This document shows, one piece after another, positions 43,500-52,006 of a stretch of 64,000 nucleotides of DNA (position 1 is its first letter; every line of letters begins with the position of its first letter). Origin of the DNA: Minisyncoccota bacterium (GTDB taxonomy: Bacteria > Patescibacteriota > Minisyncoccia > UBA6257 > JAGOQP01); NCBI GenBank assembly GCA_041674185.1, contig JBAYWE010000004.1, positions 186 to 64,185 of the forward strand. Reading direction: 5' to 3'. Below the pieces are notes generated by a model. The model saw only the letters and a list, made by a program, of their open reading frames with translations, had not been told where the DNA came from and made no database searches. The position numbers and the translations under genes were made by a program.

Positions 43500-46400
43500 C
43501 TATACAGGTAAATATTCACGATAAACTCGTACCGTTTCTTGATAAATTGATTCTATTAAACGTTCTGCCTGTATCTGTTCCACAAAACCTTTTTGGATTA
43601 AAAGTAATCTTACATTCTGACGAATACGTGCTTTTATAGTCTCATTATTTGTCCAATCAATTGCAAGATCGCGGCGTATTCGCTTTGTGAGATCTTTTAC
43701 AAATTCTTTTATATCAATCCCTGCATTTTTAAGATCTGGATCTGCAATAAGAGTATCATAAAAAACAATCTCTTCAGAAGACAAGCCAAGATTTACACTT
43801 TCTTGATCTAACTTTTTTATTTCATCCGCTATCTCAAGGAGGCGTTTTATAATCTCTGCCGAGCTAATAACATTGTTCTCATATTTTTCTATAAGATCAG
43901 TAAGAAGAGTGATCATTGTTTCATATCTTGCTTTATTTTTTCTCATTCGTGCAACAATCTCTTTATTAAGTAATTTACGAATCACGTCGACTGCAAAGTT
44001 CTTAAACTTCACCTTCTTTATTTCTTCGCTAAATCGCGGATCAAAAATAGAAATGGTTTCTTTTTCTCCATCTTCATTTGCAAATAAATCTATAACTCCT
44101 TCTGCCTGTATTGTGTCCTGAATTAAATTGCGAATAGCACTTTCGGTCTCTTCAGGAAATATAGCATGAGGCACAACTGTTTGTTTATTAATTGCACCAC
44201 GAATTGCTTGAAAAAACTGTATATCAGTAGCGATGTTCATTGCTTCTTCTCCGGGCATAACTAGCGCGTGTAATTTTGAGAGTTTTGAAACTGCACCTAT
44301 ATATTTCATCTTTCTATCATCCGAGAGAATCCCATGATCTGAGATTACTTCGTTGATACTAGCTTGAAATAATTCCACCAGTTCAATGCCTTTCTTCTTT
44401 TTCCATTCTGAAAAAGAAACATTTCCAAAGAAATCACTTGTTGTCTGATAAAGTTTTTTCATCTCTAAAATAACCTCATCAAGAGGGATGAGTGCGTTCC
44501 GCTGAACATCCGAATCATAAATGGCAAGCGCCTTTTTTAGGTTATCTGCGACACCGATATAATCAACAATAAGTCCACCTGGTTTGTCTTTATAAACACG
44601 ATTTACACGGGCAATTGCCTGCATAAGCCCATGATTCTTGAGTGGTTTATCAAGATACATGGTATGTAGGTTTGGGACATCAAATCCAGTAAGCCACATA
44701 TCACATACGATAGCGATTTTTAGTGGATCATTTGTTTTCCTAAAATGTTTTTCTAACTTCTTTACGTCTCGTTCAGTTTGAATGTCTGATGCAAAATCTT
44801 CACTTTTTGAAATAACTACTGCACACTCTGGAGCCCCTGGTATTTTTTTAATTGCATTATACATTTGAACCGCAATAGAACGGCTCATGGTAACCACCAT
44901 CGCTTTACCTTCAATAGGACGAATAGTGTAGTGAGCAACTATATCTTTTGCAATTTGTTCAATACGGCTTGGTGCACCAACTACTTTTTCTAATACTGCC
45001 CATTCTTTTTGAGCTCGCATTCTTTCGTCAATCACAATCTCACCCAAAAGATCATCGAGTTTACTATCAATAAATCTATCCGCTAAATGAAGTGGAATAA
45101 GACGTCCTTCATAGAAAATTGGAACCGTCGCACCATCTTTTACTGCCTGTCCGATTTTATATGAACTCACAATATCTCCAAATACACGAACTGTATCGTG
45201 ATCATTATGAGAAATGGGGGTTCCTGTTACACCCAAAAAGCTCACGTGAGGAAGTGCGCGACGGACGTTTCCTGCAAGCATACTATATTGAGTGCGATGT
45301 GCCTCATCAGTAAGTACAATAATATTTTCTCTCTCAGTAAGAACATTGTGTGCATCTGGATCTTCTTGAAATTTTTGGATTGTAGTAAAAATAAGCTCAC
45401 TTCCCAGATGAGAGAGTTTATCTTTTAGATCTTTTATTGTCGTGGCTCGTTTTGCGAGAGTACCATATCCTGTACGACTAAATGTTTTAAATAACTGATC
45501 ATCAAGATCTTCGCGATCAGTAAGAAACACATATGCAGGACTTTTTAGTTCCGGAATACTTTTTGTCTTATTTACATAAAAAACCATAGAGAGTGACTTA
45601 CCAGATCCTTGCGTGTGCCAAAAAACACCGATCTTTCGATCTTGATTACCAAGCACTGAATGAATTGTGCTTTCAATAGTTTTGTTTACTCCATAATATT
45701 GGTGATAAAGTGCCATCTTCTTTGTATAAGTCACCGCATCTCCATCACTATCCGCCTCAAAGATGGTAAAGTTTTGAATAACATCAAGTAAGCGGACTTT
45801 ATCAAAAAGACCTTTTGTTAATACCTCAAGTTGAGTGGTGTCTCTTGGTGAATCATTTTCTAATTCAATTCCCTTCCATGTTCCGTATCTTTCCCACGAT
45901 GAAGATATTGTTCCGTGTCGAGCGTCAGTTAAATCACTTAGACAAATAATTTGGTTATATAAAAATAGTTTTGGAATTTCTTTTTTGTAATATTCAATAT
46001 CTCGATATGCTTGTCCAATTGATGCTTGTTCACGAGTGGGGCTTTTAAGTTCAAACACTCCAAGGGGGATACCATTTACAAATAAAACAGCATCTAGGCG
46101 ACATATATTATCAATCCCCTGAACAGTGAATTGATTCACTATAAGAAACTCATTTGCCTCTGGGTTTGAGAAATTAATAAGCTTTACCAATTCCGTTTTT
46201 TCTTCTCCGTCTTCTTTCCATGTTTTTTTCACTCCTTCGGTAATATTAAAATATATCTCTCTATTGCCCAGCATAAGATCGGGGTTGTGGAAACTAGAAA
46301 TATCATTCACTACCTGTTCTGCCTGCATTTGGGGAAGTTGTGGATTTAAACGACGAACAGCACCAAGGAGATGATTTTTTAGCACAACCTCACGGAAGTT

Positions 46401-46523
46401 TTCACGTTCCGCATTGGGTTGTCCTGGATTTATCTCTGGACCATATAAGTACTCATAACCCTGGCTTTGTAGCCATTGGATAAGAGATTGTTCTGTTAAG
46501 TTATTTTCGTTAAGGGGGTTCAT
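43500..46523 (-). CDS. hsdR: Type I restriction enzyme R subunit (HsdR)
   Basis: 1007 aa. N-terminal nuclease region, SF2 helicase motifs including DEAH (VLTDEAHRTQ). Last gene of the operon. Confidence 0.85.
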   Translation of the reverse strand: MNPLNENNLTEQSLIQWLQSQGYEYLYGPEINPGQPNAERENFREVVLKNHLLGAVRRLNPQLPQMQAEQVVNDISSFHNPDLMLGNREIYFNITEGVKKTWKEDGEEKTELVKLINFSNPEANEFLIVNQFTVQGIDNICRLDAVLFVNGIPLGVFELKSPTREQASIGQAYRDIEYYKKEIPKLFLYNQIICLSDLTDARHGTISSSWERYGTWKGIELENDSPRDTTQLEVLTKGLFDKVRLLDVIQNFTIFEADSDGDAVTYTKKMALYHQYYGVNKTIESTIHSVLGNQDRKIGVFWHTQGSGKSLSMVFYVNKTKSIPELKSPAYVFLTDREDLDDQLFKTFSRTGYGTLAKRATTIKDLKDKLSHLGSELIFTTIQKFQEDPDAHNVLTERENIIVLTDEAHRTQYSMLAGNVRRALPHVSFLGVTGTPISHNDHDTVRVFGDIVSSYKIGQAVKDGATVPIFYEGRLIPLHLADRFIDSKLDDLLGEIVIDERMRAQKEWAVLEKVVGAPSRIEQIAKDIVAHYTIRPIEGKAMVVTMSRSIAVQMYNAIKKIPGAPECAVVISKSEDFASDIQTERDVKKLEKHFRKTNDPLKIAIVCDMWLTGFDVPNLHTMYLDKPLKNHGLMQAIARVNRVYKDKPGGLIVDYIGVADNLKKALAIYDSDVQRNALIPLDEVILEMKKLYQTTSDFFGNVSFSEWKKKKGIELVELFQASINEVISDHGILSDDRKMKYIGAVSKLSKLHALVMPGEEAMNIATDIQFFQAIRGAINKQTVVPHAIFPEETESAIRNLIQDTIQAEGVIDLFANEDGEKETISIFDPRFSEEIKKVKFKNFAVDVIRKLLNKEIVARMRKNKARYETMITLLTDLIEKYENNVISSAEIIKRLLEIADEIKKLDQESVNLGLSSEEIVFYDTLIADPDLKNAGIDIKEFVKDLTKRIRRDLAIDWTNNETIKARIRQNVRLLLIQKGFVEQIQAERLIESIYQETVRVYREYLPV

Positions 46524-47383
46524 GATGTGTGTATTCTTGAAACCATATCTTTTACATCAGACATCATTTCTTTTATATCTGATAAAACAGGAATTGTCGA
46601 TTTATTCCCCACAATTTCTTTTGTCTCATTTTGTCTTATATTTGTCATCGGCGATGAATAAAGTTTACCAATCGCATCTAGTATAAAATCAAGCTTTTTC
46701 TTATATTCATCATCGTCTTTATCAGAGAATAGATTCTCAACTATCTCCTTGTAAGCTTCTAGGGAACGGGCGATAGAGGCCTTAAACTCATATTCTTCAA
46801 TTAATTTTTCTCCTCGTGAATATTGTCCGCTGATAAAGATTTCAAAAAATATAATTGGAGACGTAGCTGCTAGTTTAACTAAAAAATTTATCTCAAATAT
46901 ATTTCCGCCATTAGATGTCTGCCAGATAACTATTCCAGCAACCGATAAAAGAAGAGCCATACTAGTACCGAATAACCACCAAAACCAACTCTTATTACTT
47001 AATTTTAATCCGTCTCTAACCTTATCGAATGAATTGGAAAGTTTTTCATTAGAAATAGTTCCCAATTGTTGTAGTGAAAGACTTTGGATTTCGTCACTTT
47101 TTGTTTTAAGTTCATCTACTACTTTCTTGGTTTCTTCGGTTAAGGTTTGCTGTTCCTTGGTGGTCTCTTTTAAAGTAGCAATTTCCCCAATCAAGTTTTC
47201 TAGCTCTTCCTTCTTTTTAGGAATCGCATCTATATTTTCTTTTTGTGCTTGTACTTCAGCAATTAATGTATCTATTACTTGTTTTTGGGTGATAAAATTT
47301 TGTACTAAAGCGTTAAGATCTCCTAGCGCCCTTAGGTTTTGATCTATATCTGCTAACTTTTGTTGTACTTCTTTTGTTTTCAT
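46520..47383 (-). CDS. Coiled-coil / two-TM protein embedded between hsdS and hsdR; function unknown
   Basis: About 130 aa of N-terminal coiled coil, two TM helices (WFWWLFGTSMALLLSVAGIVIW and SPIIFFEIFISG), then a C-terminal soluble domain. Overlaps the hsdR start by 4 nt. Confidence 0.5.
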   Translation of the reverse strand: MKTKEVQQKLADIDQNLRALGDLNALVQNFITQKQVIDTLIAEVQAQKENIDAIPKKKEELENLIGEIATLKETTKEQQTLTEETKKVVDELKTKSDEIQSLSLQQLGTISNEKLSNSFDKVRDGLKLSNKSWFWWLFGTSMALLLSVAGIVIWQTSNGGNIFEINFLVKLAATSPIIFFEIFISGQYSRGEKLIEEYEFKASIARSLEAYKEIVENLFSDKDDDEYKKKLDFILDAIGKLYSSPMTNIRQNETKEIVGNKSTIPVLSDIKEMMSDVKDMVSRIHTS

Positions 47384-47387
47384 AAAT

Positions 47388-48701
47388 TTAAATTAATTTT
47401 GCTAATAATTGATCTCTGGATTGTTTTAATTTTTGATTTTCGAGGAGAGATTCTTTTATAAAATTAAACATCGGTTTTATAGTTCCATTAAAACTATAAG
47501 TAATGTTTTCTAGAGGTATTAACATTTTATAATTTTCTATTAATTGCTTATTAATATGTTGCTGGGCACCACCAGATGCTCCTGAAATTATATCTAAAAT
47601 ATTATTTTTGATACATAAATATATATATTCATTTAAAATATTATTTTCGTCATATATACCAACAACTGATTGATTAGCTGTTGATTCAATCTCAAGACGA
47701 CTGACTTGCCCAAGTGTGGCTCCAGTTATAGCAAGGAGGGTTGTCCCTGAATTCATTATGCTTGCATTAGATTTTTTAAGACCTGCTTCTGATATATACT
47801 CGGTTGCTTTAATAATTCTGAGGTTATTTATTTCGCCAGAATTGATCCATGGAATGCTCCCTCCCCAGAATTCTTTTTTATCTCTCGATGGGGTTCCTCC
47901 TAGTGTAACGGTTGCTAATCGTGATATTTTTTTCATTTCCCACCCTTCAGGAATTTTTCCCATTTCGCTATCAATCATTTTTACTTTTTCATAACCTGGA
48001 AAATGAAAGTTTACAAACCATTCATTAAAAATAGTTTGTGCTGTGGTTTCAAGATTTTTAATTATCTTATTGTTGTTTTCAATTTTCTCATCATATGCAC
48101 TTAAAATTTCTGAAATCTTTTTTTGGATTGAGAGGTTTGGAATATTTATCTCGTAATCACGCAACTGTTCTAAAGATACATTTTTTATAGTACTACCAGA
48201 AGCATTATTTGTTATATGTTTTTTAAACCTATTATCTAATAGTACATAATAAAAATAATTTAAATCAAAACCATCACTAATATTGATATAGGAAACACTT
48301 TTACCTAGTATACATTTCTCGTTCTTGTATTTTGCTAAATTACCGATTGTTCCATTAATAGAAAGCAAAAGGGTTCTTTCAGTTAAATCTTTTTTGTGTT
48401 TAATGTATTCTGACTCATTTACTTTTTTTGTATCTTTTTTTATTGAAACATAACCATTATCTAAATTATTTCCATTAATAAAATAATATTCCCCATTGTC
48501 GTCATATACTGGAGTCCCATGTAAACCATCACCAATTCTACTGGTAACATCTATTAGTTTATAAGTGGCCCTCGGTATCTTTTCTATTTGTTTCAGTAAA
48601 TTGCTCATATTTTTGATCTGTGGATAACTCTTGATTTTGGTGGTGGTGAATGTTATACTCCTTTCATACCTGCCCGAGGTCAATTCGGGATAACTTTCCA
48701 C
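47388..48701 (-). CDS. hsdS: Type I restriction-modification specificity subunit (HsdS)
   Basis: Two target-recognition domains separated by a conserved central repeat, ending with the conserved C-terminal coiled region. 437 aa. Confidence 0.75.
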   Translation of the reverse strand: MESYPELTSGRYERSITFTTTKIKSYPQIKNMSNLLKQIEKIPRATYKLIDVTSRIGDGLHGTPVYDDNGEYYFINGNNLDNGYVSIKKDTKKVNESEYIKHKKDLTERTLLLSINGTIGNLAKYKNEKCILGKSVSYINISDGFDLNYFYYVLLDNRFKKHITNNASGSTIKNVSLEQLRDYEINIPNLSIQKKISEILSAYDEKIENNNKIIKNLETTAQTIFNEWFVNFHFPGYEKVKMIDSEMGKIPEGWEMKKISRLATVTLGGTPSRDKKEFWGGSIPWINSGEINNLRIIKATEYISEAGLKKSNASIMNSGTTLLAITGATLGQVSRLEIESTANQSVVGIYDENNILNEYIYLCIKNNILDIISGASGGAQQHINKQLIENYKMLIPLENITYSFNGTIKPMFNFIKESLLENQKLKQSRDQLLAKLI

Positions 48702-48712
48702 AAAAACCTGAC

Positions 48713-49378
48713 CTAGTCAGGTTTTTGTTTTTCTACCTTGGCAATATGCTTTTTAATATTCTGTGCATTTATGACTAAATCAGCCGACTCTCTGAATTTT
48801 GTCAAAATATATCCACCCTTCACTATAATCACTTTTTTACCTTTTCGTTTTAAGTAATTATTTAAATACACAAAATCAGCATCTCCAGAGAAAATACAGA
48901 AAGTATTATAGTGTTCAAGCATCTTTAGCGCATCTACAGAAATCTCTACATCAAAATTTGATTTTCTGATTTCTATAAATTTTTTGCCATCTATATCTGT
49001 TTTAACATATTTATCAGGAATATATTCGCCCGTCTCAAAATAATGCCTAATTTTTTGAATGTCTTTAGTCATTACATCTCTTTTGCCAAAAACTTTTCGC
49101 ATAACATAGGTAAAACTGAGAGACTTTTGATTTTTAGGATTTTCTCCATAGTAAATTCTCGCCCTCTCACTAAAAATATCCAAAAATGATTTAAGTTTTT
49201 CTAAGTCTATTGATAACTTCTCATCGGGAGCGAGGAGTTTATTCTCCCAGTCTTGATTGTCATTTTGAAACCACTTATTTACGTTTGAGAAATCGACAAA
49301 AGTGAAAATCTTCCCGTAATCTTCGGTGATCTGTAGCTCATCTTTGATAAACTTCTTTTTTAGGTCTTGCAAATCCAT
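48713..49378 (-). CDS. NYN-domain (LabA/PIN-like) predicted ribonuclease embedded between hsdM and hsdS
   Basis: NYN signature segments (IFTFVDFSNV..., FDVEISVDA..., CIFSGDADFVYL..., KKVIIV). Confidence 0.55.
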   Translation of the reverse strand: MDLQDLKKKFIKDELQITEDYGKIFTFVDFSNVNKWFQNDNQDWENKLLAPDEKLSIDLEKLKSFLDIFSERARIYYGENPKNQKSLSFTYVMRKVFGKRDVMTKDIQKIRHYFETGEYIPDKYVKTDIDGKKFIEIRKSNFDVEISVDALKMLEHYNTFCIFSGDADFVYLNNYLKRKGKKVIIVKGGYILTKFRESADLVINAQNIKKHIAKVEKQKPD

Positions 49379-49382
49379 ATAT

Positions 49383-51182
49383 TTAAAATCCTAACTCTTT
49401 TAGATTTTTCTCAATATCTTTTTCTAATTCGCGGCCTTTTGTGAATGCTCCCCGCAATTCTTCTGAAAATTTTATCATCTTTTCTTCAAATGTAACTCCA
49501 TCATCCTCAACGTCTGCAAGTCCAACATAGCGTCCAGGAGTTAATGTATATCCATTTTTCTGTATTTCTTTTAAAGTTGCTGATTTACAAAAACCTGAAA
49601 TATTTTTATATTCCCCAACCTCTTGTTCACCCCGCCACGCACGAACGGTGTCCGCAATTTTTTGAATTTGTTCTTTATTGAAAATCACTTGTTTACGAGA
49701 AATTTGTTCAAAAGTATCTCGTGCATCAATGAATAATGTTTCTCCAGTGCGTTTACGAAAACGATCACCATTTTTGTTTCTAGCCAAAAACCAAAGGGAT
49801 ACAGGAAGCGAAACATTATAGAAAAGTTTTGATGGACATGAAATAATAACGTCAACCATATCTGCTTCAATAAGTTTTTGTCTTAGTTCACCCTCTTTAC
49901 CGGATACAGCAAGGGCACCATTTGGCATAACGAATCCAGCATTACCATTTGGTGCTAAATGGTGAGCAAAATGTTGTACCCACATGAAATTCGCATTGCC
50001 ACTCGGTGGAGTGCCCAATGTTATGCGCGGATCATTATCGGCAAGTTTGGATGGTTCCCAATCTGCATTAAATGGAGGATTAGCAATAACAAAATCTGCC
50101 TGCAAATGAGGGAATTTGTCTTGATAATAAGTATTTCCTAATTCAATTTTTCCAGATAGACCACGAATTGCAAGGTTCATTTTACAAAGTCGCAAGGTTG
50201 TTGGATTGCTTTCTTGTCCGTTAATTGCAAGTCGTGACGAATCCTGATGATGATCTCGCAAGAACTCACCCATGGATACAAACATTCCTCCACTTCCACA
50301 TGCGGGATCAAGTACTCGAGCATTTTCATATGGTTCAAGAATCTCTACTAAAAGTTTAACAATAGATCGTGGGGTAAAAAATTCTCCTCCACGCTTACCT
50401 TCGGATGAAGCAAATTGACCAAGAAAATATTCATAGATACGTCCGAGGATATCCTTCTCTCTATCAAAGTTGTGATCAAACGAAATACGAGAAAAGATAT
50501 TTATAAGTTCACCAATTACTGCATGATCAAGAGTTGTTCTTGTATAAATTTTAGGAAGCACTCCTTCAAGTTCTGTTAAGTTATCACTCTCAATATAATC
50601 CATTGCCTTATCAAGAATCTGTCCAATATCTGATTGCATTGTTTTTGTCTGCAAATATTCCCAACGAGATTTTTCGGGGACATAAAATACTCCAGCGCTT
50701 TTATAAAAATCTTTTGTCTCAAGAATTTGAGCTCGAGCTTTTTCATCTGCAACATAAAATTCTTCATTTTTAGGATCATGAGTGAGCTCATCAAGTTTCT
50801 CGCGTCTTTTATAGAATGCATCTGAAATATATTTTAAGAAGAGAAGACCAAGTACAATATTTTTATACTCGGAAACATCAATGTTACCACGAAGCTTATC
50901 TGCTGCGGCCCAAAGTTCTTTTTCAAAATCAAGATCTTTATGATGATTTTTTTCCAAAACCTTCTTTGTTGTCTTCTTTTGTTCGCCTCTAATGCGTTCT
51001 TGGAGTTCGGGGGGGAGAGTTGACCTAGGAATGAGGTAGTTGCGACCCATTTTCTGAGCCGGTATCTTTCCTTCGGAAATCTGTTTATGCACCGCAATAC
51101 GGCTTATCCCGAGCATTTTTGCCATCTCTGCAGAGGTTATGAACTGTGATTTGTGTGTTTCCATGATCTTATAATAGCACAA
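49383..51182 (-). CDS. hsdM: Type I restriction-modification methyltransferase subunit (HsdM) with N-terminal helix-turn-helix extension
   Basis: N-terminal excisionase/MerR-like HTH (SAEMAKMLGISRIAVHKQISEGKIPAQKMGRNYLIP), HsdM N-domain, SAM-binding motif I (LDPACGSGGM), motif IV NPPF. Confidence 0.85.
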   Translation of the reverse strand: MCYYKIMETHKSQFITSAEMAKMLGISRIAVHKQISEGKIPAQKMGRNYLIPRSTLPPELQERIRGEQKKTTKKVLEKNHHKDLDFEKELWAAADKLRGNIDVSEYKNIVLGLLFLKYISDAFYKRREKLDELTHDPKNEEFYVADEKARAQILETKDFYKSAGVFYVPEKSRWEYLQTKTMQSDIGQILDKAMDYIESDNLTELEGVLPKIYTRTTLDHAVIGELINIFSRISFDHNFDREKDILGRIYEYFLGQFASSEGKRGGEFFTPRSIVKLLVEILEPYENARVLDPACGSGGMFVSMGEFLRDHHQDSSRLAINGQESNPTTLRLCKMNLAIRGLSGKIELGNTYYQDKFPHLQADFVIANPPFNADWEPSKLADNDPRITLGTPPSGNANFMWVQHFAHHLAPNGNAGFVMPNGALAVSGKEGELRQKLIEADMVDVIISCPSKLFYNVSLPVSLWFLARNKNGDRFRKRTGETLFIDARDTFEQISRKQVIFNKEQIQKIADTVRAWRGEQEVGEYKNISGFCKSATLKEIQKNGYTLTPGRYVGLADVEDDGVTFEEKMIKFSEELRGAFTKGRELEKDIEKNLKELGF

Positions 51183-51375
51183 ATTAATTTGGAATGCAAG
51201 TTAACATAGGTTAACCACACTATGGTAAAAGATCACTGTTATATGTGTATATTATTCAATACTCAATAATGATTGTTCTATAAACATAGGAGGAGAGTTC
51301 GCCCGCGAGTCTTTTTGTTGCAACAAAAAGCTCTGGGCACCAACTCGCTGTACTCACAGCTGTTCGCACATGCTC

Positions 51376-51395
51376 CCTGCCTACCGGCAGGCAGG
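51376..51395. repeat. 20-bp near-palindrome CCTGCCTACCGGCAGGCAGG (copy 3 of 4)
   Basis: Lies between copy C of the tRNA-linked element and an extra partial core copy (51318..51370). Confidence 0.9.
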
Positions 51396-51421
51396 CGTCA
51401 TTCGAATCATCTAAATAGAAA

Positions 51422-51599
51422 GGAGATTCGGCTACAAGTCGTTTTATCTTCCGCTAAAACGCTCGCAGCCCGCCCCTCGTGGCACTCCTTACCACCTCGT
51501 TCGTCGCGCAACACTACGGTCTTCGAATCCCCCACGTGGATGAAGCAGTTCATTCACTCTCTCCGCAAACAAAATACCCCCTTACGGGGTACTTGTTTG
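51422..51599 (-). repeat. tRNA-3'-end-linked structured element, copy C (attached to tRNA-Ser)
   Basis: Read on the minus strand after tRNA-Ser. A long hairpin comes first. The left arm CGGAGAGAG [GAATGAA-CTGC-TTCATCC] ACGTGGGGGATTCGAAGACC is the reverse complement of the tRNA-Ser 3' end with the CTGC hairpin inserted. The core is homologous to A and B (GACCGTAGTGTTGCG...GAGGTGGT...GCGAGCG...). The right arm is GTAGCCGAATCTCC. A second partial core copy (GAGCATGTGCGAACAGCTGTGAGTACAGCGAGTTGGTG) lies beyond the palindrome. Confidence 0.65.
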
Positions 51600-51686
51600 C
51601 GGAGAGGGGGAGATTCGAACTCCCGGGGGCGGTTAAGCCCCACAGCTTTAGCAAAGCTGCACAATAGACCACTCTGACACCTCTCC
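51600..51686 (-). tRNA. tRNA-Ser (anticodon GCT)
   Basis: Acceptor GGAGAGG/CCTCTCC, anticodon stem CAGCT/AGCTG with loop TTGCTAA, long variable arm GGGGCTTAACCGCCCCC, T-arm GGGAG-TTCGAAT-CTCCC, discriminator G. Confidence 0.8.
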
Positions 51687-51691
51687 ATATT

Positions 51692-51937
51692 TTATTGTAA
51701 ATTATACTTTCTCTTTATCTCTTCACGTTTATATCCTTTTTTGTATTCTTTTTCAAGGCAACGAGCATCTTCTTCTGTTTTACATTCTATATATTCTAAA
51801 AGTGTTAATGGTATTCTATTTTTTAATGACTGAGTGTGTCCAGCGTTATGCTCTAAAATTCTTCGCGAGACATTATTTGTCTTACCAATGTATATCCCGC
51901 AATCTTTCTCACTTTTTAAAATATATACAAAGTACAT
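51692..51937 (-). CDS. Standalone GIY-YIG nuclease-domain protein (YhbQ/UPF0213-like, 81 aa)
   Basis: YFVYILKSEKDCGIYIGKTNNVSRRILEHN matches the GIY-YIG catalytic motif (GIY ... YIG ... R ... E ... N). There is no DNA-binding extension. Confidence 0.65.
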   Translation of the reverse strand: MYFVYILKSEKDCGIYIGKTNNVSRRILEHNAGHTQSLKNRIPLTLLEYIECKTEEDARCLEKEYKKGYKREEIKRKYNLQ

Positions 51938-51951
51938 AGTTATATGTAATT

Positions 51952-52006
51952 CTGCACAATAGACCCCTGCCTACCGGCAGGCAGGACTCTGACACCTCTC
52001 CATATT
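51952..52006 (-). pseudogene. Duplicated 5' fragment of tRNA-Ser (nt -5 to +30) interrupted by the 20-bp palindrome
   Basis: AATATGGAGAGGTGTCAGAGT [CCTGCCTGCCGGTAGGCAGG] GGTCTATTGTGCAG. It matches 51657..51691 exactly outside the insertion, then diverges into the GIY-YIG gene. Confidence 0.8.
51966..51985. repeat. 20-bp near-palindrome CCTGCCTACCGGCAGGCAGG (copy 4 of 4)
   Basis: Inserted between positions 16 and 17 (D-loop) of the duplicated tRNA-Ser 5' fragment. Confidence 0.9.

What the first reader, a model, noticed from the sequence alone, without database searches (positions are those of the whole stretch)
43500..51182. The Type I R-M operon carries two extra embedded genes, a NYN-domain RNase and a coiled-coil membrane protein
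**What the sequence shows.**
- The gene order on the minus strand is hsdM, NYN-domain protein, hsdS, coiled-coil/2-TM protein, hsdR.
- Intergenic gaps are 4 to 12 nt, and there is a 4-nt overlap into hsdR, so all five genes are almost certainly co-transcribed.

**Established knowledge.**
- Type I R-M loci are known hosts for embedded abortive-infection or anticodon-nuclease modules. PrrC, which sits between the hsd genes of EcoprrI, and RloC are examples.
- A NYN (PIN-like) RNase in that position is a direct analogue of such a latent RNase effector.

**Inference.** The coiled-coil membrane protein could be a membrane effector or a sensor.
Basis: partly seen in the sequence, partly recalled or inferred. 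Interest (0 to 1): 0.75.

Follow-up and report, generated by a model that had tools for sequence, protein, structure and literature searches.

The report
Restriction operon carrying two accessory cassettes
A restriction-modification operon in a tiny uncultured (CPR) bacterium carries two independent passenger genes: a mobile RNA-cutting enzyme that always travels with its own small antisense RNA, and a membrane protein from a large unnamed family that recurs inside anti-phage systems.

Summary
**Observation.** It is confirmed with one correction. The minus-strand order is hsdM, NYN, hsdS, coiled-coil/2-TM gene, hsdR. Three junctions are tight. The NYN–hsdS "gap of about 12 nt" is an artefact of a spurious GTG start; the real gap is about 104 nt.

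**NYN gene.**
- It is a genuine NYN/PIN-like protein with invariant acidic residues.
- It is not PrrC- or RloC-like. It has no NTPase domain and no HEPN domain, and 17 of 21 relatives in species-representative genomes lie outside hsd loci.
- The 104-nt gap holds a conserved antisense small-RNA gene of about 70 nt, with its own promoter, two covarying hairpins and a terminator whose loop is the NYN stop codon.
- This RNA was found at all 30 family loci scored and nowhere else.
- The NYN+RNA block is 91–95% identical in DNA between operons whose hsdM and hsdR are 69–75% identical, so it is a recently exchanged cassette.
- My best reading is a toxin–antitoxin-like RNase/RNA module. This is inferred, not shown.

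**Membrane protein.**
- It belongs to an unnamed superfamily (2,562 cluster representatives).
- Members recur between hsdS and hsdR, between pglX and pglZ of BREX, beside other methyltransferases, and in defence islands.
- It is probably an abortive-infection effector or a guard.

**Verdict.** This is a new variant of a known kind, defence genes embedded in defence systems.

The parts
49383..51164 (-). hsdM (Type I methyltransferase subunit) with an N-terminal HTH_17/excisionase-like domain. The likely start is ATG 51164; the ORF list starts at TTG 51182.
   Evidence: - Pfam N6_Mtase E=7e-103, HsdM_N E=1e-25, HTH_17 E=8e-8.
- PADLOC MTase_I E=3.5e-157.
- A promoter-like TTGCAT (51199-51194), 17 nt, TATTAT (51176-51171) ends 6 nt before the ATG (read).
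48713..49378 (-). NYN-domain (PIN-like) predicted RNase, 221 aa. This is the cargo in the hsdM|hsdS slot.
   Evidence: - PF01936 E=3.3e-14.
- The AF2 model (pLDDT 78.6) best matches 2qip and the MARF1 NYN domains.
- D29, D143, D149, D166 and D168 are invariant.
- dS to orthologues is 0.19-0.44, whereas dS of the flanking genes is saturated.
48666..48735 (+). Predicted antisense small RNA of about 70 nt, convergent with NYN.
- 5' single strand
- Hairpin A, 48673-48689
- Single-stranded linker
- Terminator hairpin 48700-48728, whose loop is the NYN stop codon
- U-run
   Evidence: - RNAfold gives -25.5 kcal/mol, z=-5.3, and RNAalifold predicts the same two helices.
- Five pairs carry compensatory changes.
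- 99.1% of cells pair on this strand (8 G.U) against 97.2% on the sense strand (1 G.U, 10 unpaired).
- The covariance model finds the motif at all 30 family loci scored, 58-107 bits, and nothing else above 33 bits.
- No Rfam family matches.
48631..48659 (+). Sigma-70-type promoter of the antisense RNA: TTGATT, 17 nt, (TG)TATACT.
   Evidence: - Found by the promoter scan.
- The same -35/-10 pair, with a 16-17 nt spacer, ends 8 nt before the conserved ACCTGCC in 16 of 22 lineages, or 18 of 22 if -10 ending 6 nt before is also counted. The spacer sequence itself is not conserved.
47388..48608 (-). hsdS (specificity subunit, two target-recognition domains). The corrected start is ATG 48608, giving 406 aa.
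   Evidence: - Methylase_S, 2 stretches.
- PADLOC Specificity_I matches begin at residues 46-59 of the long ORF.
- The ATG is conserved in L002 and L026.
- The orthologue is 406 aa.
46520..47383 (-). Coiled-coil / 2-TM protein, 287 aa. This is the cargo in the hsdS|hsdR slot.
- N-terminal coiled coil, about 1-130
- TM1, about 133-154
- TM2, about 162-186
- Conserved C-terminal region (EEYxFKASIARSLEAY ... LYSSPM)
   Evidence: - No Pfam, NCBIfam or PADLOC family.
- 62 close relatives; 2,562 cluster representatives at E<=1e-3.
- All-helical AF2 model, pLDDT 70.8.
- Recurs between hsdS and hsdR and between pglX and pglZ.
43500..46523 (-). hsdR (restriction/translocase subunit), 1007 aa, full length.
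   Evidence: - HSDR_N, SWI2_SNF2, T1R_D3-like and T1RH-like_C.
- TIGR00348 E=3.6e-177.
- Its start overlaps the stop of the 287-aa gene by 4 nt.
51599..51686 (-). tRNA-Ser(GCT), immediately upstream of the operon.
   Evidence: - ARAGORN.
- No repeat of its 3' end flanks the operon.

Best explanation
**The locus.** It is an intact Type I restriction-modification operon (hsdM-hsdS-hsdR) of a Candidatus Paceibacterota (CPR) bacterium. Its two inter-subunit slots have each been filled by an independent accessory module.

**Slot 1 (hsdM|hsdS).** It holds a mobile two-part cassette.
- One part is a NYN-fold RNase gene.
- The other is a small-RNA gene of about 70 nt, convergent with the RNase gene and overlapping its last ~7 codons and stop codon. 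It has its own promoter and terminator.
- I propose that this works like a toxin-antitoxin pair. The RNA keeps the RNase in check, either by antisense pairing to the 3' end or read-through part of its mRNA, or by binding the protein. The second is suggested because the RNA sequence is far more conserved than cis-complementarity requires.
- When transcription of the short RNA stops (phage takeover, or loss of the element), the RNase is released and cuts cellular or phage RNA. That would give abortive infection or addiction.
- The cassette does not need the Hsd proteins, since most copies lie outside hsd loci. Its ancestral home nevertheless seems to be the junction just after hsdM.

**Slot 2 (hsdS|hsdR).** It holds a coiled-coil, two-transmembrane protein of a large unnamed superfamily.
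- The family recurs next to DNA methyltransferase or specificity genes of Type I R-M, BREX and other R-M systems, and in defence islands.
- I propose it is a membrane-acting second-line effector or guard linked to methylation-based defence.

**Shown.**
- Gene content, domains and fold.
- Recurrence of both modules in these contexts.
- The conserved RNA motif, its covariation and promoter, and its one-to-one linkage with NYN.
- The low synonymous divergence of the cassette.

**Inferred.**
- That the RNA is transcribed.
- That the RNase is toxic and the RNA neutralises it.
- Any anti-phage role.
- Any activity of the membrane protein.
For: **NYN identity.** HMM, fold, invariant acidic residues.

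**Cassette nature.**
- NYN is 91-96% identical in protein, with dS 0.19-0.44, between operons whose hsdM and hsdR are 69-75% identical in DNA with saturated dS.
- The high-identity block runs from about 49400-49460 to about 48620. It covers the NYN ORF plus 30-90 nt downstream, depending on the locus.

**RNA partner.**
- A conserved element follows every family member, whatever the context.
- Two helices carry 5 compensated pairs; 0 of 500 shuffles reach the observed score.
- G.U against A.C asymmetry favours the antisense strand 8:1.
- A positionally fixed antisense -35/-10 pair has a non-conserved spacer.
- The U-run follows the hairpin on the antisense strand.
- The covariance model hits 30 of 30 family loci, including members at 43-46% identity that were not in the seed, and nothing else.
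- The non-coding RNA body is 88% identical pairwise, against 54% at NYN third codon positions.

**Independence from Hsd.**
- 17 of 21 genome loci lack hsd genes.
- Other copies follow Type ISP or Type III R-M, HicA, or housekeeping genes.

**Link to hsdM.**
- NYN sits directly after hsdM in two or more unrelated Type I families.
- hsdM 3'-end remnants abut NYN where hsdM is not the upstream gene (L010, E=5e-22).

**Membrane protein.**
- At least 27 of 40 loci have an R-M gene within two genes: 14 between hsdS and hsdR (or adjacent to one of them), 10 beside an N6_N4 methyltransferase, 1 beside a Type ISP enzyme, and 2 beside other R-M-like genes.
- A relative sits between pglX and pglZ in the two Acinetobacter plasmids inspected, and 24 plasmids hold the same match.
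- Relatives lie beside Mrr, TIR, SLATT/GmrSD and EcoRI-methylase genes, and in a prophage lysogeny module.

**Concept.** Genes embedded in Type I R-M, BREX and similar systems are often defence genes (bioRxiv 10.1101/2024.01.29.577857).
Against: - There are no expression data. The RNA, its strand and its ends are predictions.
- The hairpin is a near-perfect palindrome and would also terminate the sense strand. The strand call rests on 9 informative cells from related lineages, plus the promoter.
- No significant pairing of the RNA with the NYN translation-initiation region was found. A classical translation-blocking type I mechanism is therefore not supported.
- Known type I toxins are mostly small hydrophobic peptides, not 221-aa enzymes.
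- The only NYN candidate tested so far for defence (HEC-09, a different family) protected against no phage tested.
- NYN is under strong purifying selection (omega 0.03-0.11), and many non-hsd neighbours are housekeeping or translation genes. A cellular RNA-processing role is therefore not excluded.
- For the membrane protein there is no fold or family match at all. The structure model is only moderately confident, and the functional argument is purely contextual.
Confidence: 0.5

Rival explanations
1. PrrC-like guard. The NYN RNase is held latent by binding the HsdMSR complex. It is unleashed when a phage anti-restriction protein inactivates the R-M enzyme.
For: - NYN sits 4 nt after hsdM in several operons of at least two unrelated Type I families.
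- hsdM 3'-end remnants travel with it.
- PrrC sets the precedent.
Against: - There is no NTPase or HEPN domain.
- 17 of 21 genome loci lack hsd genes, and copies after Type ISP or Type III systems or housekeeping genes keep the same protein and the same RNA.
- A dedicated conserved RNA partner argues for self-contained control.
Confidence: 0.12
2. Operon-regulatory device. The NYN RNase, the bidirectional hairpin and the antisense RNA tune R-M expression. They would uncouple hsdM from hsdS and hsdR, delay restriction on entry into a new host, or process the polycistronic mRNA. They would play the role that C-proteins play in other R-M systems.
For: - The cassette sits exactly between the M and S cistrons.
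- A terminator-like hairpin and a convergent promoter lie in the hsdS leader.
- The ancestral position is after hsdM.
Against: - Most copies are outside any hsd operon, yet keep the RNA.
- Most related hsd operons function without it (L022, L027, L046, L048, L050).
- HsdM already has its own N-terminal HTH domain.
Confidence: 0.13
3. The conserved 3' element is not an RNA gene. It is a DNA-level feature of a selfish cassette: a bidirectional terminator plus protein-binding or recombination sites. Candidates are the inverted TGTGGAnAG / TTATCCACA (DnaA-box-like) motifs. NYN would then be an ordinary accessory RNase.
For: - The hairpin is a near-perfect palindrome that works on either strand.
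- DnaA-box-like motifs flank the promoter in about 12 of 22 lineages.
- Low dS shows recent movement.
- An IS200-type Y1 transposase lies beside NYN in L086.
Against: - Compensatory changes in two helices preserve pairing rather than sequence.
- The G.U asymmetry is strand-specific.
- A positionally fixed -35/-10 pair with a variable spacer is a promoter signature.
- No transposase accompanies the other 29 loci.
Confidence: 0.12
4. The coiled-coil/2-TM protein is a structural tether, not a toxic effector. It would hold methyltransferase-containing complexes (Type I R-M, BREX) at the inner membrane where phage DNA enters, improving first-line defence.
For: - It always lies next to a methyltransferase or specificity gene: hsdS, pglX or an N6_N4 methyltransferase.
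- It is tightly coupled to hsdR, with a 4-nt overlap.
- It has a long cytoplasmic coiled coil.
Against: - Distant relatives stand alone in defence islands and in a prophage lysogeny module without such partners.
- Most Type I and BREX systems lack it.
- Conserved charged residues in TM2 (K170, E181) and an invariant Pro (P176) fit a pore or channel at least as well.
Confidence: 0.2

Closest known systems
PrrC / EcoprrI (and RloC): an anticodon nuclease embedded in a Type I R-M locus
   Same: A predicted RNase gene nested between hsd genes. It could plausibly serve as a second line of defence.
   Different: - PrrC and RloC are ABC-ATPase plus HEPN proteins, silenced by the R-M complex and almost exclusive to Type I loci.
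- This protein is a single-domain NYN/PIN-like protein.
- It is mostly found outside hsd loci.
- It has its own conserved RNA partner.
Type I toxin-antitoxin systems with 3'-overlapping convergent antisense RNAs (B. subtilis TxpA/RatA, BsrG/SR4), and the nuclease-type exceptions SymE/SymR and RalR/RalA (recalled from memory)
   Same: - A protein-coding gene and a small cis-antisense RNA gene are convergently arranged and overlap at the 3' end.
- The RNA has its own promoter and terminator.
- The pair travels as one mobile unit.
   Different: - The protein here is a 221-aa NYN RNase, not a small membrane peptide.
- The overlap with the ORF is only ~23 nt.
- The non-coding RNA body is strongly sequence-conserved, which hints at protein binding.
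- Toxicity and neutralisation are untested.
Type III toxin-antitoxin / abortive infection (ToxIN, AbiQ)
   Same: An endoribonuclease paired with a dedicated structured RNA. The TA logic could give abortive infection.
   Different: - Type III antitoxins are tandem repeats upstream of the toxin, on the same strand, and are processed by the toxin.
- Here a single RNA lies downstream on the opposite strand.
- The nuclease fold is different.
HEC-09 and the 'guilt-by-embedding' candidates (bioRxiv 10.1101/2024.01.29.577857)
   Same: A NYN (MARF1-like) protein embedded in a defence system. The general principle is that genes nested in Type I R-M, BREX, DISARM or Hma systems are defence candidates.
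   Different: - HEC-09 has an N-terminal HTH-like domain, is embedded in Hma systems, and gave no protection in tests.
- The window protein matches no HEC or PDC model in PADLOC. Its only hit is a partial one to a LabA-like NYN model, E=4e-6.
- No RNA partner was described for HEC-09.
AbiZ (Lactococcus membrane Abi that causes premature lysis) and 2-TM effectors such as SLATT
   Same: A membrane protein with two TM helices, encoded in defence contexts. A membrane-permeabilising abortive role is plausible.
   Different: - The window protein has no significant match to AbiZ or SLATT models.
- Only 2 of 124 distant relatives touch the PADLOC AbiZ model, best E=5e-6. I could not resolve whether that is coiled-coil noise.
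- The conserved C-terminal motif (EEYxFK...SPM) is not described for either family.

Membership tests
Type I restriction-modification system | HsdM, HsdS (two target-recognition domains) and HsdR are all present, full length and on one strand. | tested here: met
   N6_Mtase plus HsdM_N; Methylase_S x2; HSDR_N, SWI2_SNF2 and T1RH-like_C; TIGR00348 E=3.6e-177.
NYN domain (PF01936, PIN-like nucleases) | Profile match above the curated cut-off. | tested here: met
   54.1 bits against 24.2, E=3.3e-14.
NYN domain (PF01936, PIN-like nucleases) | PIN-like alpha/beta fold. | tested here: met
   - AF2 model pLDDT 78.6, pTM 0.75.
- Top PDB hits are 2qip (E=1.3e-7) and the MARF1 NYN domains 5yaa and 6fdl.
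NYN domain (PF01936, PIN-like nucleases) | Conserved acidic active-site residues. | tested here: met
   - D29 (FVDFSN), D143 and D149 (NFDVEISVDA), and D166 and D168 (SGDADF) are invariant in 17 relatives at 67-96% identity.
- Assigning them to catalytic positions is by motif analogy, not by superposition.
NYN domain (PF01936, PIN-like nucleases) | Metal-dependent RNase activity. | not testable with these tools
   Needs biochemistry.
PrrC / RloC anticodon nucleases | N-terminal ABC-ATPase-type NTPase domain. | tested here: not met
   The protein is 221 aa. NYN is the only significant domain in Pfam, NCBIfam and PADLOC.
PrrC / RloC anticodon nucleases | C-terminal HEPN-type nuclease domain. | tested here: not met
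   The fold and HMM are NYN/PIN-like.
PrrC / RloC anticodon nucleases | Found (almost) only embedded in Type I R-M loci. | tested here: not met
   - 4 of 21 genome loci are in hsd operons; 17 have no hsd gene within 10 kb.
- Other contexts are described.
PrrC / RloC anticodon nucleases | Silenced by the R-M complex and activated by a phage anti-restriction factor. | not testable with these tools
   Needs experiment.
Type I toxin-antitoxin (cis-antisense RNA antitoxin) | A small-RNA gene with its own promoter and terminator, antisense to and overlapping the protein gene's transcript. | tested here: met
   This is met in silico only. Evidence: promoter, structure and covariation, and linkage at 30 of 30 loci.
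Type I toxin-antitoxin (cis-antisense RNA antitoxin) | The toxin is a small hydrophobic peptide. | tested here: not met
   The protein is a 221-aa soluble enzyme fold. It resembles only the rare nuclease-type exceptions.
Type I toxin-antitoxin (cis-antisense RNA antitoxin) | The protein is toxic and the RNA prevents its synthesis. | not testable with these tools
   No trans pairing with the translation-initiation region was found. Toxicity is untested.
Type III toxin-antitoxin (ToxIN-like) | Tandem-repeat RNA antitoxin upstream of the toxin on the same strand. | tested here: not met
   A single-copy RNA lies downstream on the opposite strand.
HEC-09 / PADLOC defence candidates | Match to a PADLOC HEC or PDC model. 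| tested here: not met
   - NYN: only a partial hit to the LabA-like NYN model PDLC01154, E=4e-6.
- 287-aa protein: best hits have E>=0.011, in the coiled coil.
- Relatives, including the BREX-embedded one: no model.
AbiZ | Match to the AbiZ profile. | tested here: inconclusive
   - The window protein has no hit.
- 2 of 124 distant relatives match at E<=1e-3, best 5.4e-6.
- The AbiZ sequence could not be obtained for a direct comparison.
SLATT / other named 2-TM effector domains | Pfam SLATT or other membrane-effector profile match. | tested here: not met
   No such hit for the window protein or for 124 relatives; only coiled-coil families appear.

The most novel reading that the evidence does not exclude
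**NYN plus antisense RNA.** The pair would be a previously undescribed class of RNA-controlled toxin-antitoxin or abortive-infection module.
- It would be an enzyme toxin of the NYN/PIN-like fold governed by a dedicated, sequence-conserved small RNA.
- It spreads as a cassette among restriction-modification operons of CPR bacteria.

**Coiled-coil/2-TM protein.** It would found a new, widespread family of membrane effectors that back up methylation-based defences (Type I R-M and BREX).
Probability: 0.3. Interest if true: 0.75.

Novelty: new variant of a known kind. Interest (0 to 1): 0.6.

Why it matters
**What is already known.** Genes nested inside R-M, BREX and similar systems are a known hunting ground for new anti-phage systems. 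An hsd operon with passengers is therefore not surprising in itself.

**What is new here.** There are two concrete, testable candidates from a lineage (CPR/Patescibacteria) whose defence repertoire is barely explored.
- **RNase plus RNA.** A NYN RNase is strictly linked to a conserved ~70-nt structured RNA. No match was found in Rfam, or in PADLOC beyond a partial NYN-model hit, and no report turned up in the papers searched. If it is a toxin-antitoxin or abortive-infection pair, RNA-antitoxin systems would gain a new toxin fold. It would also give CPR bacteria a mobile defence or addiction cassette.
- **Membrane family.** An unnamed membrane-protein superfamily of thousands of members sits in the same relative position in Type I R-M and BREX. 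That points to a shared accessory function for methylation-based immunity.

**Annotation.** The work also corrects the local annotation: the hsdS and hsdM starts, and a non-coding gene hidden in an apparent 11-nt gap.

Tried and rejected
- **Family searches for the 287-aa protein** (Pfam, NCBIfam, PHROGs, PADLOC). Only coiled-coil noise appeared, plus a weak hit to phrog_34659 of unknown function.
- **Pfam and PADLOC scans of 124 distant relatives and of the BREX, Hymenobacter and phage relatives**. No family was found. PF28217 and PF27605, listed for a few relatives, are not in the local Pfam copy.
- **PDB sequence-profile search and Foldseek on the all-helical model**. Coiled-coil matches only; no usable fold hit.
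- **AbiZ lead.** It was not resolvable.
- **Viral-contig scans.** None found for the 2-TM family. Three weak or distant NYN hits, of which one (L061) carries the RNA motif.
- **tblastn of the window 2-TM protein against plasmids.** No match. Only more distant relatives used as queries reached the Acinetobacter plasmids.
- **Rfam, at gathering and permissive thresholds.** Nothing for the RNA.
- **Trans pairing of the small RNA with the NYN ribosome-binding/start region in 13 lineages.** z is about 0, so this was rejected.
- **A sense-strand promoter TTGACC...TATAAC in the NYN-hsdS gap.** The spacing varies from 15 to 22 nt between lineages, so it was rejected as a promoter (read).
- **Island integration at tRNA-Ser.** There is no repeat of the tRNA 3' end.
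- **Long-range pairing of TGTGGAnAG with TTATCCACA in the sense RNA.** There is one compensatory case (L080) but there are also counter-examples (L084, L086), so it is left unexplained.

Full report
**1. What is in the sequence.**

On the minus strand of 43500-51182 lie five consecutive ORFs. Family searches give the following.

| ORF | Result |
|---|---|
| HsdM | N6_Mtase E=7e-103, HsdM_N, and an N-terminal HTH_17 domain |
| 221-aa protein | NYN, PF01936, E=3.3e-14, 54.1 bits against a cut-off of 24.2 |
| HsdS | two Methylase_S stretches |
| 287-aa protein | no family |
| HsdR | full length; TIGR00348 E=3.6e-177 |

- The exact proteins are on record from a Candidatus Paceibacterota MAG, a CPR/Patescibacteria bacterium.
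- The fourth junction is not. The hsdS ORF was read from a GTG at 48701, but four observations argue against that start:
  - S-subunit profiles start matching at residues 46-59.
  - Orthologous hsdS genes are 406 aa.
  - An ATG at 48608 is conserved.
  - The 31 extra codons lie on an element that follows NYN even where no hsdS exists.
- The true NYN-hsdS gap is therefore about 104 nt.
- tRNA-Ser(GCT) lies just upstream of the operon. No att-like repeat of its 3' end was found.

**2. The NYN protein.**

- The AlphaFold model (pLDDT 78.6) matches the LabA-like NYN protein 2qip (E=1.3e-7) and the MARF1 NYN domains best.
- The acidic residues D29, D143, D149, D166 and D168 are invariant across relatives at 67-96% identity.
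- The first refutation criterion, missing catalytic Asp residues, is therefore not met.
- The protein is a single 221-aa domain. It has no NTPase or HEPN module, so it fails the defining features of PrrC and RloC.
- It matches no HEC or PDC model in PADLOC. Its only hit is a partial one to a LabA-like NYN model.

**3. Where NYN relatives live.**

- A scan of one genome per species (GTDB) found 21 loci.
  - Four have NYN directly after hsdM: L001, L002, L003, L006.
  - Seventeen have no hsd gene within 10 kb.
- Look-ups of further relatives gave these contexts:

| Relative | Identity to window NYN | Context |
|---|---|---|
| P0078 (24 contigs read) | 96% | hsdM-NYN-151aa-hsdS-329aa-hsdR |
| P0093 | 84% | hsdM-RhuM-151aa-NYN-hsdS-DUF3800-hsdR, in a Type I family only 33% identical to this one |
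| others | 74-77% | after a Type ISP enzyme plus DUF3644 |
| others | 74-77% | after a Type III R-M |
| others | 74-77% | beside HicA |
| others | 74-77% | between a Pif1 helicase and IleRS |

- The neighbours of the 17 non-hsd loci are diverse and include many housekeeping genes.
- Even so, fragments of an hsdM 3' end abut the NYN start in loci where hsdM is not the upstream gene:
  - L010: 51 aa, E=5e-22.
  - L076: 20 aa.
  - L003: 13 aa.
- The hsdM|NYN junction therefore looks ancestral for at least part of the family.

**4. NYN is a recently exchanged cassette.**

- Between the window and L026, L001, L002, L003 and L074, NYN is 91-96% identical in protein with dS 0.19-0.44.
- In the same comparisons hsdM and hsdR are 73-80% identical in protein with saturated dS.
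- Sliding identity shows a sharp block of more than 90% from about 49400-49460 to about 48620. It covers the NYN ORF plus 30-90 nt downstream, depending on the locus.

**5. A conserved antisense small-RNA gene.**

*Motif and structure.*
- Downstream of every family member there is a conserved motif.
- On the strand opposite to NYN it reads as follows:
  - a -35/-10 pair (window: TTGATT, 17 nt, TGtTATACT at 48631-48659; also found);
  - about 8 nt later, the conserved sequence AUACCUGCCCGAGGUyAAUUCGGGAnAACUnUCCACAAAAACCUGACCUAGUCAGGUUUUUGUUUUU.
- It folds into a 6-bp hairpin, a 10-nt single strand, and a 13-bp terminator hairpin whose loop is the NYN stop codon. A U-run follows (z=-5.3).

*Covariation.*
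- Five base pairs carry compensatory changes in 14 cells, and 0 of 500 shuffles reach the observed score.
- 99.1% of cells pair on the antisense strand, with 8 G.U cells.
- On the sense strand 97.2% pair, with 1 G.U cell and 10 unpaired cells.

*Promoter.*
- It sits at the same distance in 16 of 22 lineages, or 18 of 22 if -10 ending 6 nt before is also counted. The spacer is 16-17 nt and its sequence is not conserved.

*Linkage to NYN.*
- A covariance model built from 22 sequences finds the motif at all 30 family loci scored, at 58-107 bits.
- These include six GTDB loci and a viral contig that were not in the seed, with NYN proteins down to 43-46% identity.
- Nothing else in 706 kb scores above 33 bits.
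- More distant NYN-like proteins (29-33% identity) in L053, L023 and L047 lack it.

*Databases and conservation.*
- Rfam has no such family.
- A literature search found no NYN-based RNA-antitoxin system.
- The non-coding body of the RNA is 88% identical pairwise. NYN third codon positions are 54% identical and the promoter region 56%.
- A purely cis-antisense RNA would not need that conservation. I therefore suspect sequence-specific recognition, perhaps by NYN itself.
- No trans pairing with the NYN start region was detectable.

**6. Consequence for the operon.**

- The M|S junction holds a hairpin that is terminator-like on both strands, and a convergent promoter.
- Transcription from the hsdM promoter must read through these to reach hsdS, the 2-TM gene and hsdR.
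- Co-transcription of all five genes is therefore possible but not 'almost certain'.
- The last three genes are tightly coupled to one another.

**7. The coiled-coil/2-TM protein.**

*The protein and its family.*
- It has 62 close relatives, all CPR-like.
- A full profile search finds 2,562 cluster representatives at E<=1e-3, and 810 at E<=1e-10. Many are 400-590 aa long, with the homologous module at the C-terminus.
- The conserved core has four parts:
  - a helix (SF..R...L);
  - TM1;
  - TM2 with an invariant Pro and conserved Lys/Glu;
  - the motifs YSRE.RL.EEYAFK and SP.
- No Pfam, NCBIfam, PADLOC or PDB family matches. All hits are coiled-coil noise.

*Context in 39 metagenome loci plus the window.*
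- 14 lie between hsdS and hsdR or adjacent to one of them. Other cargo sometimes sits alongside: DUF3800, Fic, RhuM, small Zn-ribbon proteins.
- 10 are divergent from an N6_N4 DNA methyltransferase.
- 1 is next to a Type ISP enzyme.
- 2 are next to other R-M-like genes.
- Most of the rest are on contigs too short to judge.

*More distant relatives.*
- They lie between pglX and pglZ of BREX-1, with 4-nt overlaps on both sides, in the two Acinetobacter plasmids inspected; 24 plasmids hold the same match. The profile match covers the TM and C-terminal motifs.
- One lies beside a P-loop NTPase on a Hymenobacter plasmid.
- One lies in the lysogeny module of a Riemerella temperate phage.
- Others lie beside Mrr, TIR/kinase, and SLATT_5/EcoRI-methylase/GmrSD genes in chromosomal islands.

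*Comparison with NYN.*
- Unlike NYN, this gene is as diverged as its flanking genes.

**8. Relation between the two inserts.**

- They occur separately more often than together.
- Of about 11 operons with the 2-TM gene and a visible M|S slot, two carry this NYN family (the window and L026).
- Of 7 NYN-bearing operon types, two carry the 2-TM gene.
- They are independent cargo in two variable slots, which also hold Fic, RhuM, DUF3800 and unknown genes.

**9. Interpretation.**

- The general phenomenon is known. PrrC is the classic case, and a 2024 preprint formalised 'guilt by embedding' for Type I R-M, BREX, DISARM and Hma. That preprint included a NYN candidate (HEC-09) that gave no protection.
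- *NYN.* My best-supported account is a self-contained, mobile RNase/small-RNA module with toxin-antitoxin logic. Its original home is just after hsdM. The RNase being toxic, the RNA being expressed and neutralising it, and any anti-phage effect are all inferences.
- *2-TM protein.* My best-supported account is a member of a large uncharacterised family of defence-context proteins, probably a membrane-acting effector or guard for methylation-based immunity. A non-toxic membrane tether is a serious rival.

**10. Verdict.**

- Novelty: a new variant of a known kind.
- Interest is moderate to high, because both modules are concrete and testable, and I found neither described in the libraries and papers searched.

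Noticed in passing
window 48600-48625 and 48690-48700 (minus-strand reading); same positions in L005, L007, L015, L018, L076, L080, L082, L084: - A perfect or near-perfect DnaA-box-like TTATCCACA lies just upstream of the antisense RNA's -35.
- An inverted partial copy (TGTGGAnAG) lies inside the RNA-coding region, so the two bracket the promoter.
- The motif is present in about 12 of 22 lineages.
- L007 has three tandem AAGTCAATT repeats there.
- The function is unknown: operator, DnaA binding or long-range RNA pairing.
   Followed up: partly
window 51162-51220 (minus strand): - hsdM carries an N-terminal HTH_17/excisionase-like domain.
- The upstream region has TTGCAT-17-TATTAT ending 6 nt before ATG 51164, which suggests a leaderless mRNA.
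- Two GTTAAC palindromes lie just upstream of the -35, which suggests autoregulation of the operon by HsdM itself.
- A related operon (L076) has a MerR-type HTH fused to HsdM.
   Followed up: no
window 51280-52006: - The 5' half of tRNA-Ser (51657-51691) is duplicated at 51952-52006.
- The copies flank an 81-aa ORF at 51692-51937. I judged it GIY-YIG-like by eye only; it was not scanned against any family library.
- A 21-nt palindrome, CCCTGCCTACCGGCAGGCAGG, occurs at 51375-51395 and at 51965-51985.
- The ~320 nt between the tRNA and hsdM is unusually GC-rich and has no Rfam match.
- This looks like a homing-endonuclease-type insertion next to the tRNA.
   Followed up: partly
L068-L075 (Candidatus Yonathbacteria-type contigs carrying NYN relative P0078): - In 7 of 8 contigs hsdM is split into 179-aa and 435-aa ORFs; it is intact only in L074.
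- hsdS is truncated in several contigs.
- The embedded NYN protein is identical in all eight.
- This may reflect R-M decay or phase variation with retention of the cassette.
   Followed up: no
L002, L003, L027, L032, L044, L046, L050, L068, L076: - The two inter-subunit slots of these CPR Type I operons are hot spots for variable cargo.
- The cargo seen includes Fic, RhuM, DUF3800, a 151-161-aa Cys-rich Zn-ribbon protein, a 100-aa Cys-rich protein, and 329-aa, 243-aa and 226-aa unknowns.
   Followed up: partly
L064 6113-7483 (NC_010404.1, A. baumannii AYE p3ABAYE, ABAYE_RS00370) and 23 other Acinetobacter plasmids: A 456-aa 'hypothetical protein' sits between pglX and pglZ of BREX-1 in the two plasmids inspected (p3ABAYE and pB18-2), overlapping both neighbours by 4 nt. 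It is a distant homologue of the window's 2-TM protein. This host is culturable and genetically tractable, so the family could be tested there.
   Followed up: partly
L086 7243-8162: An IS200-type Y1 transposase (140 aa) and a second, shorter NYN gene (167 aa) lie just downstream of the NYN+RNA cassette. This is the only locus with a transposase nearby.
   Followed up: no
L004, L011, L015 (upstream of NYN): In these non-hsd loci NYN lies directly after a tRNA gene. In L004 and L011 the tRNA is followed by its terminator, and NYN has its own promoter-like TTGATT...TGATATAAT. NYN can therefore be expressed independently of hsdM.
   Followed up: no
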